Assembly: GCA_051599415.1 (NCBI GenBank)
Contig: AP039711.1
Coordinates: forward strand, 1-64,000
Direction of reading: 5' to 3'
Origin: Savitreella phatthalungensis
Taxonomy: Eukaryota
Length of the DNA stretch: 64,000 nt
Made by a program: the position numbers and the translations under genes. The notes below the pieces were generated by a model. That model saw only the letters and a program-made list of their open reading frames with translations, was not told where the DNA came from and did not search any database. This document shows positions 1 to 15,706 of the stretch, in pieces. Position 1 is the stretch's first letter. Each line of letters starts with the position of its first letter.

Positions 1-71
1 TGTAGTCTACTTCGTTCAGTTACGTATTGCTAAGGTTAAGACTACTTTCTGCCTTTGCGAGAACAGCACCT
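1..71 (+). other. Untrimmed Oxford Nanopore ligation adapter plus native barcode (technical artefact)
   Basis: TACTTCGTTCAGTTACGTATTGCT (8-31) matches the ONT adapter. It is followed by flank AAGGTTAA (32-39), the 24-nt barcode GACTACTTTCTGCCTTTGCGAGAA (40-63, recalled as NB06) and flank CAGCACCT (64-71). Confidence 0.95.
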
Positions 72-188
72 ACCCTAACCCTAACCCTAACCCTAACCCT
101 AACCCTAACCCTAACCCTAACCCTAACCCTAACCCTAACCCTAACCCTAACCCTAACCCTAACCCTAACCCTAACCCTAACCCTAACC
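72..188 (+). repeat. Telomeric repeat (CCCTAA)n, about 19 units, left chromosome end
   Basis: Perfect CCCTAA array at 73-186, with the C-rich strand at the 5' end of the contig. Confidence 0.97.
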
Positions 189-630: not shown

Positions 631-1000
631 TGGCTGCTACTGCTACCACACTGACTACTTCTGACATTCCCTTCACTCCTTTTAGTACTGCCACTACTAC
701 AGCTACTGCTGCATTCACTGCTGCTGCCGTTTCTACTGCTGCATTCATTACTGCTGCTGTTTCTACTGCTGTTTCTACTGCTGTTTCTACTGCTGTTTCT
801 ACTGCTGTTCCTACTGCTGCCACTGCTGCTACCGCTGCTGCTGCCACTGCTGCTGCCACTGCTGCTGCCACTGCTGCTGCCACTGCTGCTGCTGCCGCTG
901 CTGCTGCCACTGCTGCTGCTACTACCATCACCACTGCTGCTGCCACTGCTGCTGCTACTACCACCACCACTGCTGCTGCCACTGCTGCTGCTGCTGCTGG
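631..1000. repeat. Telomere-associated GCT/ACT/GCC triplet low-complexity repeat
   Basis: Degenerate CTGCTGCCA / CTACTGCTGTTT arrays; these explain the poly-Ala/Ser ORFs in the ORF track. Confidence 0.85.
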
Positions 1001-1149: not shown

Positions 1150-1455
1150 ACTGCCTAGTACCACTACCTCCTAGTACTACTACGTCCTAGTACTACTACC
1201 TCCTAGTACTACTACGGCCTGCTATTAGTGCCACCATCTAGTACCACTACAGCCTACTGCTAGTACGACCTAGTAGGTGCGAAAAATGATCGACTCGGCA
1301 ACGACCTAGCACCACCACCTAGTACTACCTAGCACAACCTGGCACGGCCTATTACTAGTACCACCACCTGCCACCACTACGACCTACTACTAGTACCACC
1401 ACCTACTAGTACGACCTGGCACTGCAGAGTACTGCCACCTGGCACTACCTAGCAC
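1150..1455. repeat. Telomere-associated CTAGTACTAC/ACCACC degenerate repeat
   Basis: Repeated CCTAGTACTACTAC and CTAGTACCACC units. Confidence 0.75.
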
Positions 1456-1664
1456 CGACAGCAACCCAAGGCCGACCTGGACGCAGTCACGTGACTGCAC
1501 AAATTTCGTGTAAAGATACCATTGGCTAGTCATCTTATCTCATCTTATCTCCTATCTCATCTTATCTATGCCTCTATGTGTGCGCAACATGACATCATTT
1601 TCTCATTTTGTCCACTTTGACTGGCTATATCTTCTGATCCAGATGTCAGATGATCACAAGACTA

Positions 1665-1824
1665 GTCTCATCATGACGCCATTGATCAACTCTATAAAAA
1701 GTATTTTGACATGTACAACGGTTTTTTGTCTATGTACTGAGCTTGTCTCATCATGACGCCATTGATTGACTCTATAAAAAACATTTTCACATGCAAAACA
1801 ATTTTTCATTTATATACTGTGTTT
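1665..1824 (+). repeat. 80-bp direct tandem duplication, each copy carrying ATGACG and TATAAAAA
   Basis: GTCTCATCATGACGCCATTGAT starts at 1665 and at 1745; TATAAAAA at 1693 and 1773. Confidence 0.85.
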
Positions 1825-1840
1825 GCCACGTGCTCACAAT

Positions 1841-2097
1841 GCAAGGCCCTTGGTCTCGTGGCACAGTGGTTTGGCCCCCACTGAGCTACTGAGTCACGAG
1901 CTTTGTGCATGGAGGGTAGATGCAGGTCTGGCAGGGTTTGAGGGTCTTAGGTTCAAATCCTGCTTGGAGCAATAATTAACTGCCAATAAGCTCTAGGCAG
2001 TCAGGGAGCAAGAGCGCTCTCAGGGGCTTTCCCTCCATGCACGAGGTCAGAACATTTTTCTGAGTGTTCTGATACAGGGGGTTTTGCCAAATTTTTT
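1841..2097 (+). ncRNA. Candidate Pol III-transcribed structured RNA or tRNA-derived SINE-like element of unknown family
   Basis: TATATA at 1811, A-box TGGCACAGTGG at 1859-1869, B-box GGTTCAAATCC at 1950-1960 and T6 at 2092-2097. Several long helices, including 5'/3' terminal pairing. Confidence 0.55.
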
Positions 2098-2109
2098 CAC
2101 ATTCAGGCA

Positions 2110-2440
2110 CAGAGAGATGCAGAGAAGGCAGTCAAATGCATAGAATGCAGCGGAATGCAGGGAATGCATAAAATGCAGTGAATTGCAGGAAATGCAGGGA
2201 ATGCAGAAAATGCAGAAAATGCAGAGTTCATGATGCAGTTTGGTTCACATTTGTGGAGCGCTGCAGTCTTGGATGCAGTTTGGTTTTACAGTTTGGTTTT
2301 ACAGTTTGGTTTCGCAGTTTGGTTCTTGCAGTTTGGTTTTACAGTTTGGTTTTACAGTTTGGTTTTGCAGTTTGGTTCTTGCAGTTTGGTTCTTGCAGTT
2401 TGGTTTTTACAGTTTGGTTTTACAGTTTGGTTTTACAGTT
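2110..2440. repeat. Subtelomeric minisatellites: ATGCAG-based 9-10 bp units, then about 14-bp CAGTTTGGTTTTA units
   Basis: Tandem AAATGCAG(A/G) units at 2110-2225 and (T)TACAGTTTGGTT / TTGCAGTTTGGTT units at 2234-2440. Confidence 0.9.
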
Positions 2441-2730
2441 AGGTTCGTCCCTAACTGTTGACTTACAGTTAGGGATGCCATGCAGTGTTTCATCCCTAAC
2501 TTCATGGCTATAATCTGGCGCTGCTGGAAACAGTTTGGGATTTTTGAACGGAATATATATATGCCATGAGATGGCTTGAGAGCGGTAGTGTACGTCATCC
2601 GCATCTGTCGCTCGTCTTATATTTGTAGACCAGCGCTTCGGTCAAGACGGCAAGGACGGCACGAGAACTCCGAGAAGTCTTTCTGGAGACCCGGCGGATT
2701 CGAATGAGCAGCCCATAAATAGATTCGATC

Positions 2731-2808
2731 GTGCATCCAAAGATTATGAAATTGTTTGACACGTACCGGTGCATCCAAAGATATTCAAATTGTTCGACAC
2801 ACGTGCAT
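2731..2808 (+). repeat. About 38-bp tandem duplication upstream of SFT2
   Basis: GTGCATCCAAAGAT...AAATTGTT.GACAC occurs twice, followed by a partial third copy. Confidence 0.7.
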
Positions 2809-2914
2809 CATCGATTACGTCGTACATGAAATTTATGGCCAAGCTTGGTAGAGGACTGGTGTACGTACGACCACATCACAGGAGAATCTCCAAACTAGTC
2901 GATCGCCGTCCGAC

Positions 2915-3496
2915 ATGACGGAGAACGCGTTCCGGTCGCAGCTACAAGGGTGGCGCGCCGGCACGCAGGCTGTTCCCCCTCCATCTGCACAACAGCCGTC
3001 GAGGTTCTCGCGGTTCTTCGGGACGGACTATGGGCGACTGCCAACGCACAACGGTGACGTGCAGCCTGAAGAGGACACGCTGTCTCGGTGGGATCGACTG
3101 CTGATCTTTGGTGCGCTGATTGCTGGAGCGGCGGTGTGCTTTGCGACTGCGTTTCTCTTTCTGCCGGTGCTGGCGCTGAGACCTCGCAAGTTCGTGACGC
3201 TCTGGACGGTCGGGTCGTTGCTTTTCCTGAGCAGTTGGGCGGCGATCCAAGGCCCTCTGGCATACGCGCGACACCTCGTCAGTGGACCACGCATTGGGTT
3301 CACGTCCGCATACGTTGGATCCCTCATCGCGACGCTCTACTTCTCGCGCGTGAGCACGCTGTTGACGCTGATCGCGGCGGTTGTGCAGATGGTAGCGTTG
3401 TTATGGTACCTTGTATCGTACTTCCCGATGGGCTCTACAGGGATGCGCTTCGCCGGCGGTCTCGTCGTCAATCGCGTCAACGGCTTCTTCGCATGA
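2915..3496 (+). CDS. SFT2: Got1/Sft2-family vesicle transport protein
   Basis: LSRWDRLLIFG, LRPRKFVTLWTVGSLLFL, QGPLAYARHL and LLWYLVSYFPMG motifs; four hydrophobic segments. Confidence 0.9.
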   Translation: MTENAFRSQLQGWRAGTQAVPPPSAQQPSRFSRFFGTDYGRLPTHNGDVQPEEDTLSRWDRLLIFGALIAGAAVCFATAFLFLPVLALRPRKFVTLWTVGSLLFLSSWAAIQGPLAYARHLVSGPRIGFTSAYVGSLIATLYFSRVSTLLTLIAAVVQMVALLWYLVSYFPMGSTGMRFAGGLVVNRVNGFFA

Positions 3497-4394
3497 AGTG
3501 GCGCAACGCAATCTTACGGCATGTATATCATTCTCTTTCTATCTCGTGTACTGTTTTTTGGGGTTTCCATAATCGTCTACCGCCTTTCGCGTGTCATGTT
3601 TCTTTGGTGTGCTTCGAGTCCTGCCAGCAGGGACGCAGAGCATCATAATTAGTCTCGATCGTCAGGTTGACCAGACTGCAGAGCATTGGAATCGGGCTCG
3701 ACGGGCTGAAAGATGGTGCTGCGGAGCAGTCGATGATGCCTGGGAGCATTGATATTGAGCGCGGACTTCTTCATCGTGCCAGCTTTATGCCTTCATACGT
3801 GAGCTACTGATCAATAGCGCATTGTATGCTTCAAGAATCAGGTTCTGCGCACGTTTCTGTCGCAAGACCAGTGGCAATCAGTTCAAATGTGCTGATCGAT
3901 GATGTTGGTCTCATGATCCCGGGTTCAGACACTAGACGATCGCGCATCACGCGCACGTCCGTAGCATGAAATGTCAGGCTCGCAGCTGACTCGAGGCTGG
4001 GAAAGTGGTCGCATAGCACATCACGCGCGCCCGGAGATTCTTTGAGCACGCATCTGATACTGCACAAGGCCGACCGACGATGCGCCTTTCTCTCGGTGAC
4101 TGTATGAATTGTGCAAGGGTGTGTCTCGCTGATAACGGCGCATGCTCGTGTCTTGAGCGGATGGCCGCGCATCGGAAACCCCGAGGACTTTTCGCGCGCC
4201 AAGTCGTGATCTGTCCGCATCATATAGACCCCCACGAAGCGAGCGTCGCTGAAACCGCGAGCACTGCACTGCCGGACGCTTCCGTGCACCGCGAAACCAT
4301 TTCGAGATCACCTGCACCATAATTCGGCGTACGGAGCAATTGAAGGCCGACTTGTGCGATCATGGGACTCTTCCTGACCTTCTCTCGGCTTCGA

Positions 4395-10630: not shown

Positions 10631-13225
10631 ATGCACGATTGGATGACACTGGAAAGGGTGCTGGACGAAGTGTACGCGTATCTTGGCGTCAGGGAGCAGG
10701 TACTGGGAGAGTATATTGTAAACCAGCATGCGCTCTCTTCCGGGTATGACGACTTCGCTTCCAGGTTGAAAGATCTGCCGGAGGCCCTCGTCAGGTCACT
10801 CGATCGGATCATCCCACGTCAGCCGCCTGCGAAGAAGCGCAGGCTATCGCCAGACATCGGGAGCGGCGCGGGCAGCAGTCGTGGCAGTGCGTCGGACCAC
10901 GGGCGCGGCCGGAGCTATGACTACGGTTGGGAGCGTGGCCGTGAACGGGACGGGGAACGCAGACGACCGTCAATCGACGAGCAGGAAGACAATGTGGATG
11001 TGGAGCTGCGAGACGATGAGCCAGCCTTCCTAAAAGGCAAGACGAGGAGGTCTCTCGAGCTGTCACCGATCAGAGTGATCCGTGCGCCTGACGGGAGTCT
11101 TAACAGGGCGGCAATGTCGGGTCAGCAGTTGCTGAGGGAGAAGCGCGAAAACGTCCGTGCTACGATCAGGGATCCTGTGAGGGCTGCGCCTCTGCCGACC
11201 ACCACACTCCACCGCGAACTACCGATTCATGCCCTCAGAAAACCCTTGCTTGAGGCTGTGAAAGCCAATCAGATGCTCATCGTCGTCGGAGAAACTGGCA
11301 GTGGTAAGACGACGCAGCTGACGCAATTTCTGGCCGATGCGGGCTTTCCGGGGAGGATTGGATGTACACAGCCGCGTCGCGTCGCAGCGACGAGCGTCGC
11401 GAAGCGCGTGGCCGAGGAACGGCGCGCGAGACTTGGTGGAGAAGTCGGCTACACGGTGCGATTTGACGATTGTTCGTCGGCTGCTACAAAGATCAAGTAC
11501 CTGACGGACGGCATGCTGCAACGGGAGTGCTTACTGGACCCAAATTTGGAGGGCTACGGCGTGATTATCCTAGATGAGGCGCACGAGCGCACGATCGCGA
11601 CCGATGTCCTATTCGGTCTGCTGAAGCGGACTTGCAAACGGCGACCAGATCTCAAACTAATCATCACGAGTGCCACGCTCGACTCGGAAAAGTTTTCGAG
11701 GTATTTCTGGGACTGTCCGATCTTCACGATTCCCGGAAGGACGTTTCCCGTGGAGATTCTGCATGCAAAGGAGCCCGAGCCGGATTACGTGGACGCGGCG
11801 CTGATGACAGTCATGCAGATTCACCTGTCGGAGAACGAAGGAGATATCCTCGTGTTCTTGACAGGTCAAGACGAGATCGAGACGGCGCGTGAGATTCTCG
11901 AGAGCAGGTCCGCGGAGATGAAGGGTCTCGAGATGATTGTCATGCCGATCTACGCGTCTCTGCCGCCAGAGCAGCAGGCGAGAGTTTTCGAGCCGACACC
12001 GCCTGGTTCGCGTAAGATCGTGCTGGCCACCAATATCGCCGAGACGTCAATCACGATCGATGGGATTTACTTCGTGGTCGACCCCGGGTTCGTGAAGCAG
12101 AACGCGTACGATCCGAAACTGGGAATGGACTCGCTCGTTGTAACGCCGATCTCTCAGGCGCAGGCACGGCAGCGCGCAGGTCGAGCTGGTCGAACAGGAC
12201 CTGGCAAGTGCTTCAGACTGTATACGGAGGCCGCATTCGAAAAGGAGATGCTGCCATCTACCGTTCCCGAGATCCAGCGGCAGAACTTGTCGAGCACGAT
12301 TTTGTCACTCAAGGCAATGGGCATAAACGACCTGCTACGATTCGACTTCATGGATCCACCACCGACGCAGACACTACTGAACGCACTTGAGGGGCTTTAC
12401 GTGCTCGGAGCTCTGGACGAGGAGGGTTTGCTGACGCGGATGGGCAGGCGAATGGCCGATTTTCCCATGGAGCCGCACTTGTCGAAGGTGCTGTTGGCTA
12501 GCGTCGATATGGGTTGTTCGCACGAGTGTCTGACGATCATTGCGATGCTCTCTAGCGGCGGCAATGTCTTTCACCGACCGCGTGAGAGACAGGCGCAGGC
12601 AGACGAGGCCAAACGACGGTTTCACCGGAGCGAGGGCGACCATTTGACATTGCTGCACGTGTATGATGCATGGGTACGATCGGATTACTCCCGTGCATGG
12701 TGCATTCAGCACTTTGTGAATGCACGTGCGCTGCTACGCGCCAGGGATGTCCGTCACCAGCTCGAAGGAATCATGGAAAGGTACAAGCAGCCGATCAGGA
12801 GCTGTGGGGGCGACTCGAAGCTGGTACGCAGGGCTATCGTCTCTGGATTCTTCACTCACGCCGCGAAACGAGATCCGCAGGAAGGTTACAAGACCGTGGT
12901 CGAGGGCACGCCTGTCTACATGCATCCGTCATCAGCTCTGTTTCACGCTGGTGGGGGTGGTTTGGGCGGTGGTGCTGAATGGGTGGTGTATCACGAGCTG
13001 GTGGCAACGACGAGGGAGTATATGCACTGCGTGACGCAGATCGAGGCCAAGTGGTTGCCCGAGCTCGCGCCTGCCTTCTTTAAGGTTGCAGACAGTAGAA
13101 CGGTGTCACGGGCAAAAGCACGAGAGCGGATCGTCCCACTTCACTCTAGGGATTCTGCAGACGAGTCATGGAGAATCTCGAAGCAGCGATCGGCTGGACG
13201 TGCTCGCCCGTCCATCTTCTCGTGA
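10631..13225 (+). CDS. PRP22: DEAH-box spliceosomal RNA helicase Prp22/DHX8
   Basis: [19 protein letters not shown] and QRAGRAGR motifs; Prp22-specific [21 protein letters not shown] and [20 protein letters not shown]. Confidence 0.95.
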
Positions 13226-13660: not shown

Positions 13661-15706
13661 ATGACACGTCGCCTTTTTCCGAATGCCCTACGTCGGGAAA
13701 TTGTAAAGACCACAGAATCTACAGACTCGCCACACAGTCTAAGAGCAAGCAGTCAAGTATCTTCGTCAACGATATCACTCATGTGTGAAGGCCAGATCCC
13801 ACTTGAAGATGTCGTTTACAGCACCGAAAAGTCATTTGTAAAGCGAGGCATCTTCAGGAGATACGCTTCGACCATATGTACTCTCACCACGATGGCCGGC
13901 GTGCCCAAACTCAACCAAGACCTGATCTACTATGAAATCGGCCGCCGACACGATACAGCTGTCGCTGCAATGAGCCGTCCTCGAAATCCTGTGATCGTTG
14001 ATTCTGGCTTTGAGACTGCAGTGTCCGAAGCCGAAGCGTTGAGGGATTTCGCGCGAGAGCACACGGGTCTCACCATGACCTTTGCTCGGACTAATTTGAT
14101 CGGGGTCGTGGAACGCATCGCTAGAGGACTGGCGTGTGCCTCTCTCTACGAAAAGGTCGACTCCGAGTGTCTCTTCGCGGGTCCGAGAAAGGCTGTCATG
14201 TTGCTCAAGCACCAGTGCCTGGACACTCCGCTCCACGAAAACGTCGTCTTTATTCCTCGCGGGAATACACGCTTCGATGAAAATATCTTCGTTGTTCTGG
14301 CCTCGGCTATCGCCGGAGAAGGAGGAATTCCCGCGACTAATTCTTTGAGCGCCGATGATCCCATGAAGTCAATGTCCCTGCCTACCGTCGACAGCAAAAG
14401 GTTCCCCAAGGCCTGCTTCAATGCCCTTCGGGTCCTCGGCGCCAATTTTGAAGCAAGCAATGCAGGCGATCAATTCGCTCTCGGCTTCACTCAAGGCATC
14501 CACTCGGCCATGAATGTCGTCCCACACAGCTATGAAGGCTCCATCATGCACGAAATCCTGGGCCAGACCTCCTATTCCGTACCTTTCGGGGGTATTCGTC
14601 TCGATCATTCTTCATACTTTGGGTTACCCAAGCATCCAGACGACTTAGTGTCTTTCCATGGTAATGTCGATGGGATCGCACTGAAGACCGCAGCTTTGGT
14701 CGCGCACTGTGACCCTTGTGTGCAGGTGAATGGAGAATGGTTTCCAACCATCCTCGGTGATGGTGCAATGTCCGCTGTTCGAGACGCCGAACTAATTACC
14801 ACATCCGGTAAAAGGGCTGATCGCAACTGGGGTCGTTTGAGACAAGTATTTCCCTCATTCTCCCGGATTTACTGCGCTGCACTCACCAAACTCTTTGCTT
14901 TTCCCCCTTCTGACTCGGGAGCTGACATCCTCTTCAATCACACCATTGATTCTATTGAGGAAGTCAAAAACTCCGTTCCTCTATACTATGGGTCTTTTGC
15001 GCCTTTCTTCTTCATTGAACCGACCAGTCTGGTCGACACTGATTTTGTCGGCTCGATTGCCGAACGAGAGGGCTTCGCTAGTCTTGCTGGGGGAGGTCAG
15101 GATGTCCATGCACGTAATGCGTGGGAGCATATTACCGTGGCCTCATCTTCGCGCAGAAGCGTCACGCATTGGGAGGTCAAGATGCGCAGCGCTCGAACTG
15201 CCTTATTTTTGGCGCATTTCGCAGGCAACCTGCGATCCTGCCTTACATCCATTCGCATCCACGAAATAAATGCAAATGCAACTATGCGGGCCCACAGCGG
15301 TCATCCACGTATAGGTGAATGGTCTCGCGAAGATTCCACGTTGGGCGACTGCCTATGGAGCCATTCCCACTCATGCCTACCTGCACCAAGCGAATTTGTC
15401 CTCCTAGCGCCGTATATGTGTATATCCGTGAGGCACTTTGACACAACGATCGACAAGGACAACCTTCCACTCATGCGGCGCGTTCCCTTGCCTCACGAAT
15501 TTGCTGAGACCAAGATCAAGATTGTTGCGTCCGTTCCGCAGTGGATTTGCCCAGGCAGGGCAGAGTCTCCTACGCGCGACATGGACTTACGTCCCTCAAA
15601 CGCTGTTGCCCAGATATCTAAGGCATGCACAAGTTCAGTCAGGGACCAATCGAGAAAACGGTCAAGAGCTTCAGCAGAGCTGTCAGATGGTGAAGCAAGA
15701 GAATGA
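13661..15706 (+). CDS. Endogenous victorivirus/totivirus-like capsid protein (non-retroviral integrated RNA virus gene); start could be the ATG at 13781
   Basis: Motifs FRRY, IYYEIGRR, VERIARGLA, YSVPFGGI, DGIALKTAALVAHCDPCVQVNGEWFPT and APFFFIEPTSL occur in the order I recall from victorivirus coat proteins. Confidence 0.85.
   Translation: MTRRLFPNALRREIVKTTESTDSPHSLRASSQVSSSTISLMCEGQIPLEDVVYSTEKSFVKRGIFRRYASTICTLTTMAGVPKLNQDLIYYEIGRRHDTAVAAMSRPRNPVIVDSGFETAVSEAEALRDFAREHTGLTMTFARTNLIGVVERIARGLACASLYEKVDSECLFAGPRKAVMLLKHQCLDTPLHENVVFIPRGNTRFDENIFVVLASAIAGEGGIPATNSLSADDPMKSMSLPTVDSKRFPKACFNALRVLGANFEASNAGDQFALGFTQGIHSAMNVVPHSYEGSIMHEILGQTSYSVPFGGIRLDHSSYFGLPKHPDDLVSFHGNVDGIALKTAALVAHCDPCVQVNGEWFPTILGDGAMSAVRDAELITTSGKRADRNWGRLRQVFPSFSRIYCAALTKLFAFPPSDSGADILFNHTIDSIEEVKNSVPLYYGSFAPFFFIEPTSLVDTDFVGSIAEREGFASLAGGGQDVHARNAWEHITVASSSRRSVTHWEVKMRSARTALFLAHFAGNLRSCLTSIRIHEINANATMRAHSGHPRIGEWSREDSTLGDCLWSHSHSCLPAPSEFVLLAPYMCISVRHFDTTIDKDNLPLMRRVPLPHEFAETKIKIVASVPQWICPGRAESPTRDMDLRPSNAVAQISKACTSSVRDQSRKRSRASAELSDGEARE

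What the first reader, a model, noticed from the sequence alone, without database searches (positions are those of the whole stretch)
1811..2097. Telomere-proximal, highly structured RNA gene candidate of about 255 nt with a full Pol III promoter
Seen, promoter: TATATA at 1811 about 30 nt upstream of 1841, a consensus A-box TGGCACAGTGG (1859-69), a B-box GGTTCAAATCC (1950-60) and a T6 run (2092-97). Seen, structure: terminal helix GCAAGGCCCTT(1841-51)/GGGGGTTTTGC(2077-87); a 19-of-20-bp hairpin at 1855-1900 with loop CCCCCA; a 16-bp helix CTTTGTGCATGGAGGG(1901-16)/CCCTCCATGCACGAGG(2031-46) enclosing three hairpins (GCAGGGTTTGA/TCAAATCCTGC, ACTGCC/GGCAGT, GGGAGC/GCTCTC); and TCAGAACAT/GTGTTCTGA (2048-72). 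Non-Watson-Crick positions are mostly G:U on the + strand. It does not fold as a tRNA cloverleaf and lacks the SRP, RNase P/MRP and snRNA signatures I can recognise. Inference: a novel Pol III ncRNA (VA/EBER-like architecture), a telomere-associated SINE, or a TFIIIC boundary element shielding nearby genes from telomeric silencing. An internal T5 at 2055-59 could terminate a shorter form.
Basis: partly seen in the sequence, partly recalled or inferred. Interest (0 to 1): 0.8.

Follow-up and report, generated by a model that had tools for sequence, protein, structure and literature searches.

The report
Subtelomeric structured RNA gene candidate
About 1.6 kb inside a fungal chromosome end lies a 255-base stretch that folds far better than chance and has the signals of a small-RNA gene, matches no known RNA family, and has not yet been shown to be transcribed.

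Summary

- **Folding:** the + strand folds at -124.3 kcal/mol, z = -8.2, with 0 of 200 shuffles as good. It is the most extreme 257-nt segment among 638 folds across the window.
- **Strand bias:** the fold has 19 G:U pairs and no A·C mismatch. The opposite strand has 1 G:U pair and z = -4.3. This points to selection on a + strand RNA.
- **Promoter geometry:** TATA at -30, an A box at +19, a B box at +110, and T6 five bases after the closing helix all agree on one transcript, 1841 to about 2097.
- **Host:** a relative of Taphrina/Protomyces. In the related fission yeast, Pol III genes use a TATA at -30.
- **Known families:** ARAGORN and Rfam find nothing.
- **Relatives:** contigs from other public runs carry several variant copies of the subtelomeric block, but not the neighbouring single-copy gene. 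The block is therefore probably multi-copy.

Not shown: transcription, covariation, and copy number in this genome. An internal T5 could truncate this copy's transcript.

Best reading: a new Pol III-type structured ncRNA gene inside a subtelomeric repeat, confidence about 0.5.

The parts
72..188 (+). Telomere repeat (CCCTAA)19.5. It marks the chromosome end and sets the orientation: the candidate is transcribed away from the telomere.
   Evidence: sequence; TRF: period 6, 19.5 copies, 100% matches
1665..1819 (+). 80-bp direct repeat, 1.9 copies, each with CTCTATAAAAA. The second unit ends in the TATA box of the candidate. In variant copies from run X3, 1727-1808 is replaced by 17-21 other letters and homology resumes at 1809.
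   Evidence: TRF; joint 1726->1809, table 5c
1811..1816 (+). TATATA, 30 to 25 nt upstream of the proposed start at 1841. Proposed TFIIIB/TBP site.
   Evidence: Fission-yeast Pol III genes use a TATA centred at -30 (passages).
1841..2097 (+). Proposed transcript of about 255 nt: a closing helix, a 5' hairpin, a central 16-bp helix enclosing three hairpins, and a 3' hairpin.
   Evidence: MFE -124.3 kcal/mol, z -8.22; helix list; 93 bp, 19 G:U; pair probabilities 0.87-0.99; most extreme segment of the window
1859..1869 (+). A-box match TGGCACAGTGG, starting at +19 from position 1841.
   Evidence: Unchanged in the X3 contigs at 1859/1860 (0 of depth 22.4). Changed in 1 of 2 X4 contigs.
1855..1900 (+). 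Hairpin A: 19 bp with one A·A mismatch, loop CCCCCA.
   Evidence: Insertions in the variants fall at the loop (after 1874) and at the internal mismatch (after 1892).
1901..2046 (+). Central domain. The 16-bp helix 1901-16/2031-46 encloses hairpins 1931-63, 1979-2001 and 2004-21.
1950..1960 (+). B-box match GGTTCAAATCC, in the 3' arm of hairpin B. It is the only match in the 64-kb window.
   Evidence: The core GTTCAAATCC is kept in the X3 variant whose loop differs (loose end at 1941).
2047..2072 (+). 3' hairpin D (11 bp). Its 5' arm and loop hold an internal T5 at 2055-2059.
   Evidence: The X3 variant has C at 2058, which interrupts the T5.
2092..2097 (+). T6 run, 5 nt after the closing helix. 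Proposed Pol III terminator.
   Evidence: Five T suffice in fission yeast (passage).

Best explanation
Positions 1811-2097 (+) are a Pol III-type transcription unit for a structured non-coding RNA of about 255 nt that belongs to no described family. It sits inside a conserved, probably multi-copy, subtelomeric block of a yeast related to Taphrina and Protomyces.

Proposed mechanism (every step below is inferred; none was observed here):
1. TFIIIC binds the internal A box (1859-69) and B box (1950-60).
2. TFIIIC places TFIIIB on the TATA at -30 (1811-16), as in fission yeast.
3. Pol III starts near G1841 and stops in the T6 at 2092-97.
4. The RNA closes on itself through an 11-bp terminal helix. 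This leaves a short U-tailed 3' end, a 19-bp 5' hairpin, a central four-way domain and a 3' hairpin.

What the sequence shows: the fold, its strand bias, and the motif geometry.

What is inferred: transcription, the polymerase, the transcript ends, and the function. For function I favour a stable small RNP RNA whose gene also acts in cis as a Pol III/TFIIIC landmark between the telomere and the first gene. The RNA's own activity is unknown.
For: 1. Folding: -124.3 kcal/mol, z -8.22, 0 of 200 shuffles as stable. It is the most extreme of 638 folds in the window, at -4.97 sd against -2.56 sd for the next non-overlapping segment. All eight helices have mean pair probability 0.87-0.99.

2. Strand bias: 19 G:U pairs and no A·C among the 1x1 mismatches on the + strand. 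The - strand has 1 G:U in 66 pairs, z -4.32. A DNA palindrome that decayed by strand-symmetric transitions should give both kinds about equally. With DNA parameters the two strands are near equal, -50.0 against -44.7.

3. Three independent cues agree on a start near 1841: the TATA 30 nt upstream, the A box 18 nt downstream (the A-box-to-start distance is recalled), and the first base of the closing helix. T6 follows the closing helix by 5 nt.

4. The B-box pattern occurs only here in the window.

5. The host groups with Taphrinomycotina. The best named hits are Taphrina deformans 66% and Protomyces lactucae-debilis 68% for a Prp22-like protein, and Protomyces 57% for Sft2. In the related fission yeast, Pol III genes carry a functional TATA at -30 (passages).

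6. Variant copies seen in other runs: all listed indels fall in loops or at an internal mismatch (after 1874, after 1892, 1941-45). One variant lengthens hairpin B with self-complementary letters while keeping the B-box core. Homology upstream resumes exactly at 1809, just before the TATA.

7. No ORF of 80 aa or more crosses the element. The longest stop-to-stop frame over it is 65 aa.
Against: - No transcript evidence: none of the 10 listed runs is on record as RNA.
- No covariation test was possible.
- Ten listed substitutions fall at paired positions in the variant contigs. Five keep a pair (1855, 1857, 1897, 1936, 1942). Five would break one unless the partner also changed (1859, 1860, 1871, 1935, 1953). 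That is about what neutral transitions give, and 31 further differences were not shown.
- The flanking tandem repeats are covered in the same runs, so conservation is not specific to the RNA.
- An internal T5 at 2055-59 would stop part of the Pol III transcripts of this copy at about 219 nt, before the 3' strand of the closing helix.
- The A-to-B spacing of 91 nt is longer than in tRNA genes (recalled).
- One X4 variant changes the first two A-box positions.
- No bona fide Pol III gene lies in the window to calibrate promoter use in this organism.
- A TATA at -30 fits a Pol II start equally well.
Confidence: 0.5

Rival explanations
1. It is mainly a cis-acting chromatin element. TFIIIC, TFIIIB and Pol III assemble on the TATA, A box and B box at each chromosome end and stop telomeric silencing from reaching the first gene (ATG at 2915). 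The transcript would be a by-product.
For: It lies between the telomere (72-188) and the first gene, Sft2, at 2915-3496. In fission yeast a centromeric tRNA gene acts as a heterochromatin barrier that needs its TATA and A box and Pol III occupancy (passages). The block is probably present at many chromosome ends (inference).
Against: A barrier needs only the promoter elements. That would not explain 93 base pairs with a 19:0 G:U-over-A·C bias, or a closing helix that ends just before the terminator. Occupancy was not testable.
Confidence: 0.15
2. It is a non-functional subtelomeric repeat. The nested inverted repeats arose by DNA-level duplication and fold-back events, and the Pol III-like motifs are coincidence.
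For: The surroundings are a patchwork of tandem repeats. The - strand also folds better than shuffles, z -4.32. The substitutions seen in the variants show no excess of pair-keeping changes. Conservation extends to the flanking repeats.
Against: The strand asymmetry of wobble pairs, 19 against 1. The multi-branched architecture, rather than one long palindrome. The single B box of the window falling here. The agreement of the TATA, the A box, the start of the closing helix and the T6.
Confidence: 0.17
3. It is a Pol III- or Pol II-driven hairpin precursor of small RNAs. Dicer would cut hairpin A (19 bp) and hairpin B (12-16 bp) into siRNA or microRNA-like RNAs that act on subtelomeric chromatin.
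For: It has long, near-perfect hairpins rich in wobble pairs and a subtelomeric, probably repeated, position. From recall only: some fungal microRNA-like RNAs depend on Pol III.
Against: The closing helix and compact four-way shape look like a stable RNP RNA rather than a processing substrate. I did not check whether this organism has RNAi genes. No small-RNA data were available.
Confidence: 0.08
4. It is a tRNA-derived SINE or a decayed, disrupted tRNA gene.
For: A-box and B-box matches. By eye, 1900-1971 can be drawn with a T arm (4 of 5 pairs, loop TTCAAAT), a D-arm-like hairpin, and 6 of 7 acceptor pairs, 3 of them wobbles.
Against: ARAGORN finds 0 tRNAs in the window. The Rfam tRNA model gives nothing even at E up to 10 on 1700-2200. 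In the drawn cloverleaf there is no anticodon stem and positions 8-9 are missing. There is no A-rich or simple-repeat tail. Homology among copies covers the whole block, not just an element.
Confidence: 0.07

Closest known systems
Fission-yeast-type Pol III genes (tRNA, 5S, SRP RNA genes with an upstream TATA at -30 plus internal control regions)
   Same: TATA 30 nt upstream, an internal A box about 18 nt after the start, an internal B box, and a T-run terminator. The host belongs to the same subphylum.
   Different: The product matches no known Pol III RNA. The A-to-B spacing is 91 nt. The gene lies in a subtelomeric repeat. It carries an internal T5.
Small structured Pol III RNAs closed by a terminal stem (vault RNA, Y RNA, viral VA/EBER RNAs)
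   Same: The 5' and 3' ends pair with each other, the promoter boxes are internal, a U-run follows the terminal stem, and the size is one to a few hundred nt. This comparison is from recall.
   Different: No Rfam match to any of them. Those families are not known in fungi (recall). The central four-way domain is not shared. This is an analogy of build only.
tDNA, TFIIIC 'ETC' and 'COC' chromatin boundary elements
   Same: A Pol III promoter placed between repressive chromatin and genes. A fission-yeast tDNA barrier needs its TATA and A box. Budding-yeast ETC sites act as boundaries (abstract seen in the listing).
   Different: Those elements are tRNA genes or bare B boxes. Here the unit encodes a large, strongly folded RNA and is part of the subtelomeric repeat itself. 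Boundary activity was not tested.
SRP (7SL) RNA
   Same: Similar length, a Pol III-type promoter, and a long central helix carrying hairpins.
   Different: No Rfam SRP model matches at E up to 10. The 5' and 3' ends pair with each other and there is a separate 3' hairpin, which is not the SRP topology (recall). None of the loops is a GNAR tetraloop. It is probably multi-copy.

Membership tests
tRNA / tRNA pseudogene | Cloverleaf recognised by tRNA finders or covariance models | tested here: not met
   ARAGORN: 0 genes in 64 kb. Rfam: no tRNA hit at gathering or at E up to 10 on 1700-2200.
SRP RNA, RNase P/MRP RNA, snRNAs, vault and Y RNAs, ribozymes (any Rfam 15 family) | Match to the family covariance model | tested here: not met
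   0 matches at gathering in the window. Only mir-8 (E 1.1, 16.5 bits against 47 required) and adapt33 (E 7) appear on 1700-2200. Both are noise.
Pol III gene with internal (type 2) promoter, fission-yeast style | A box about 10-20 nt after the start | tested here: met
   TGGCACAGTGG at 1859-69 fits TRGCNNAGTGG. The consensus is recalled.
Pol III gene with internal (type 2) promoter, fission-yeast style | B box downstream of the A box | tested here: met
   GGTTCAAATCC at 1950-60 is the sole match in the window. The 91-nt spacing is longer than in tRNA genes.
Pol III gene with internal (type 2) promoter, fission-yeast style | TATA element centred near -30 | tested here: met
   TATATA at 1811-16. 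The requirement is described in passages of PMC2040200.
Pol III gene with internal (type 2) promoter, fission-yeast style | Run of 5 or more T as terminator, and none inside the gene | tested here: inconclusive
   T6 at 2092-97 is in the right place, but there is an internal T5 at 2055-59. One variant copy has C at 2058.
Pol III gene with internal (type 2) promoter, fission-yeast style | Transcript present; Pol III, TFIIIC and TFIIIB occupancy | not testable with these tools
   No RNA run is listed. No ChIP data are available.
tRNA-derived SINE | tRNA-related head, A-rich or simple-repeat tail, target-site duplications, dispersed copies | tested here: not met
   There is no tRNA likeness. The element ends in a T run. 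There is one copy in 64 kb. Homology among the variants spans 1288-2565. I looked for target-site duplications only by eye. Genome-wide dispersal could not be tested because no genome is held.
MITE / DNA palindrome | Terminal inverted repeats that pair as DNA on both strands alike | tested here: not met
   The terminal helix has 4 G:U among its 11 pairs. The fold is strongly strand-asymmetric.
TFIIIC boundary element | TFIIIC binding and barrier activity | not testable with these tools
   Only the B box can be seen.

The most novel reading that the evidence does not exclude
Every chromosome end of this Taphrina-like yeast lineage carries a gene for a previously unknown, highly structured Pol III RNA. 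The RNA, or its transcription complex, is part of how these compact genomes organise or insulate their telomeres. That would make it a telomere-linked small RNP with no counterpart in model yeasts.
Probability: 0.25. Interest if true: 0.8.

Novelty: new variant of a known kind. Interest (0 to 1): 0.58.

Why it matters
Subtelomeres of model yeasts carry helicase genes, X/Y' elements or TERRA promoters. None is known to carry a dedicated Pol III gene for a large structured RNA.

If this unit is transcribed and present at all ends, it would add a new RNA family. It would also give a natural test case for Pol III complexes as telomere-proximal insulators in a genome whose first gene starts only 2.7 kb from the telomere repeats.

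The organism belongs to a poorly studied group of plant-associated yeasts related to fission yeast, so the genetic logic of Pol III promoters there can be compared directly.

If it turns out to be silent, it is still a striking example of how RNA-like a subtelomeric repeat can look.

Tried and rejected
- **Whole-genome search for copies:** no genome is held for this window.
- **Copies inside the window:** blastn with word size 7 found only the self match. Other hits were 31 nt or shorter, with E of 0.65 or more.
- **Earlier findings of this scan:** four look-ups, by genome, sequence, words and relatives, returned nothing.
- **Public runs:** 10 were listed and 9 hold part of the stretch, from 5 studies. 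No RNA holder is listed, so expression could not be examined.
- **Contigs of four runs:** they gave variant copies, but only partial difference tables (31 substitutions and 8 indels not shown). Pair-by-pair covariation could not be counted. The lack of cover over 2641-3360 in these runs is used only as a weak hint of multi-copy status.
- **Collection scans:** I used purine/pyrimidine-degenerate patterns around a 14-base core.
  - Metagenome contigs, two scans: 0 hits.
  - Prokaryotic genome contigs: 0 hits.
  - Viral contigs: 0 hits.
- **Other A-box matches:** those at 14500, 26778 and 60076 were read and sit in ordinary sequence.
- **First folding scan:** timed out. I repeated it with a coarser step.
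- **tRNA-like drawing of 1900-1971:** rejected, as set out under the rival explanations.
- **Telomerase RNA:** no CCCTAA-type template lies within 1841-2097.
- **Coding potential:** no ORF of 80 aa or more crosses the element, and stop-to-stop frames are 65 aa or shorter. I considered searching such a frame against the protein database to fish for relatives' contigs. I dropped the idea as very unlikely to pay for its cost.
- **Literature:** six searches found no description of such an element (listings only unless cited elsewhere). The passages and Text S1 of the Taphrina deformans genome paper that I read describe telomere repeats but no subtelomeric RNA element.
- **Covariance model:** I did not build one from the single sequence. 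A 257-column model exceeds the calibration limit, and only the window could have been searched.

Full report
**What the window is**

The window starts at a chromosome end.
- Bases 1-71 look like leftover sequencing adapter and barcode. I recognise this from recall only.
- Bases 72-188 are 19.5 perfect CCCTAA repeats.
- A 2.4-kb patchwork of tandem repeats follows.
- The first gene is an intronless Got1/Sft2-family ORF at 2915-3496.
- The rest of the window holds long, mostly uninterrupted ORFs for ordinary housekeeping proteins.

For the Prp22-like helicase, the best named relatives are Taphrina deformans (66%) and Protomyces lactucae-debilis (68%). For Sft2 they are Protomyces (57%) and Saitoella (52%). 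The TTAGGG-type telomere and about 50-57% GC fit what is reported for T. deformans (passages). I therefore treat the host as a yeast of the Taphrinomycotina, the subphylum that also holds fission yeast. Part of the subtelomeric stretch 1601-2500 that I searched with also turns up in phyllosphere and air metagenome runs.

**Checking the observation**

- Against 200 dinucleotide-preserving shuffles (mean -86.3, sd 4.6) the z-score is -8.22, and none folds as well.
- I folded 257-nt segments every 200 nt on both strands, 638 folds in all, and regressed energy on GC. The candidate lies 4.97 sd below the line. Apart from the scan segment that overlaps it, the most extreme other segment is at -2.56 sd.
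- The eight helices have mean pair probabilities of 0.87-0.99.

**Which strand, and RNA or DNA?**

The opposite strand also beats its shuffles, as any set of inverted repeats must, but much less: -87.7 kcal/mol, z -4.32.

The difference comes from wobble pairs.
- The + strand fold has 19 G:U pairs among 93. Its three single mismatches are G·A, A·A and G·G, never A·C.
- The - strand fold has 1 G:U among 66 pairs.
- If these were DNA palindromes decaying by strand-symmetric transitions, G:T and A·C oppositions should be about equally common. A 19 to 0 split has a probability near 2 in a million under that simple model. This is my arithmetic.
- With DNA energy parameters the two strands are nearly equal, -50.0 against -44.7 kcal/mol.
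- End resection at a telomere would expose the other strand, so a deamination bias from resection would push the opposite way (inference).

This is the strongest single argument that selection has acted on a + strand RNA.

**Promoter and terminator geometry**

- The B-box pattern GGTTCRANNCC occurs once in the window, here, against 0.66 expected.
- The A-box pattern TRGCNNAGTGG occurs five times against 1.0 expected, and 0 of 100 shuffles reach five. Two matches are the two arms of hairpin A. The other three lie in ordinary sequence with nothing tRNA-like around them.
- Using those rates, a B box within about 90 nt downstream of a given A box on the same strand is expected about 5 times in 10,000 (my arithmetic).
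- The cues agree with each other. The A box begins 18 nt after position 1841, TATATA lies 30 to 25 nt before it, and the closing helix starts at 1841.
- At the other end the closing helix stops at 2087, and a T6 run begins at 2092.

In fission yeast, tRNA genes have a TATA centred at -30 that takes part in recruiting TFIIIB (passages of PMC2040200). Five T on the non-template strand make a terminator (passage of bioRxiv 10.1101/571737). The unit therefore has the full signal set expected for a Pol III gene in this subphylum.

One blemish: a T5 at 2055-2059, in the 3' hairpin, could stop part of the transcripts at about 219 nt. That shorter RNA keeps hairpin A and the central domain (-98.5 kcal/mol) but loses the closing helix.

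**Known families**

- ARAGORN finds no tRNA or tmRNA in the window.
- All 4227 Rfam models find nothing at their gathering scores in 64 kb.
- With permissive filters and E up to 10 on 1700-2200, only two noise hits appear: mir-8 at 16.5 bits against 47 required, and adapt33.
- So it is not a recognisable tRNA, SRP, RNase P/MRP, snRNA, vault or Y RNA, or ribozyme.
- By eye, 1900-1971 can be drawn as a crippled cloverleaf. It has a T arm and an acceptor stem with wobbles, but no anticodon stem and no positions 8-9. The far stronger 16-bp helix competes with that drawing and both programs are silent, so I reject it.
- There is no telomerase-type template in the element.
- No ORF of 80 aa or more crosses it.

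**Relatives and copy number**

No genome is held for this window, and the window has only one copy. Four collection scans with degenerate patterns found nothing.

The only comparative data are Logan contigs of four public runs laid on 1201-3600 at 80% likeness or more.
- In run X3 (labelled as an organism) and run X4 (a phyllosphere metagenome), the stretch 1288-2565 is covered by many short contigs.
- These include three different X3 contigs and three X4 contigs over parts of the candidate, with 4-10 differences per 100-150 nt.
- The single-copy gene region from 2641 on is not covered at all in X3. In X4 it is covered only by one 53-nt piece.

The simplest reading is that the yeast is a minor component of those samples and only its repeated DNA reached assembly depth. 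On that reading the subtelomeric block, candidate included, is multi-copy, presumably one per chromosome end. This is an inference. Several co-occurring strains would also give variant contigs.

What the variants show is modest.
- All listed indels fall in loops or at the internal mismatch: after 1874, after 1892, and 1941-45.
- One X3 variant replaces the loop of hairpin B by letters that lengthen the stem while keeping GTTCAAATCC.
- Upstream homology is interrupted at 1727-1808 and resumes at 1809, two bases before the TATA.
- The X3 contig over the 3' hairpin has C at 2058, which removes the internal T5.

Against a structural constraint: of ten listed substitutions at paired positions, five keep a pair and five would break one unless the partner changed too. 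That is what neutral transitions would give, and 31 further differences were not shown. Conservation also extends into the flanking repeats, so it does not single out the RNA.

**Reading**

I put about 0.5 on a real Pol III-type gene for a structured RNA of a new family, sitting inside the subtelomeric repeat.

The main rivals are:
- a purely cis-acting Pol III/TFIIIC barrier (0.15), which has precedent in the fission-yeast centromeric tDNA barrier but does not explain the fold;
- a non-functional repeat whose RNA-like look is accidental (0.17);
- a small-RNA precursor (0.08);
- a tRNA-derived SINE or relic (0.07).

The barrier and RNA readings are not exclusive. I suspect the gene's position matters as well as its product.

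**Novelty**

No Rfam family matches. Six literature searches found no description. Nor did the passages and Text S1 of the T. deformans genome paper that I read. The kind of thing, a small structured Pol III RNA gene, is known. Its placement in a subtelomeric repeat and its architecture are not, so I rate it a new variant of a known kind. Because nothing shows expression yet, interest is 0.58 rather than higher.

Noticed in passing
window 1-71: The first 71 bases, before the telomere repeats, do not look genomic. From recall they resemble a nanopore adapter plus barcode left untrimmed at the contig end. If so, the telomere tract of about 117 nt is the true end of a single read.
   Followed up: no
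window 2449-2499: Three telomere-like hexamers lie within 50 nt just after the 13-mer array: CCCTAA at 2449-54 and 2494-99, and TTAGGG at 2469-74. Two of them form an 11-nt inverted repeat, TCCCTAACTGT / ACAGTTAGGGA. They could be sites for a Myb-type telomere-repeat-binding protein, and so a second candidate for a subtelomeric insulator.
   Followed up: no
window 1485-1496 and 1827-1832: There are CACGTG E-box palindromes: a 12-nt palindrome AGTCACGTGACT at 1485-96, and CACGTG at 1827-32, about 10 nt upstream of the proposed start. A bHLH (Cbf1/Pho4-type) factor might bind next to the Pol III unit.
   Followed up: no
window 1153-1416, 2110-2226, 2236-2445: Tandem arrays flank the candidate: 16-19-mers rich in CCTAGTAC, ATGCAG-type 9/19/28-mers, and 12.8 copies of CAGTTTGGTTTTA. 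They are also present, with the highest summed depth, in contigs of other public runs, including one air metagenome and one further organism-labelled run.
   Followed up: partly
window 703-999: A CTG/CTA-rich array of 12-, 15- and 30-mers produces long open frames on both strands (ORFs 345-1022, 602-982, 618-1118). These frames are almost certainly not genes.
   Followed up: no
window 1878-1888 (- strand): Hairpin A carries a second, even more tRNA-like A-box match, TAGCTCAGTGG, on the opposite strand. It is a by-product of the arm complementarity. No B box or nearby T run accompanies it on that strand.
   Followed up: partly
window 10631-13225: The Prp22/DHX8-like ORF is 864 aa here, while its relatives are 1150-1230 aa with an S1 domain (PF00575) at the N terminus. 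The upstream part is probably in a separate exon or was missed by plain ORF calling.
   Followed up: no
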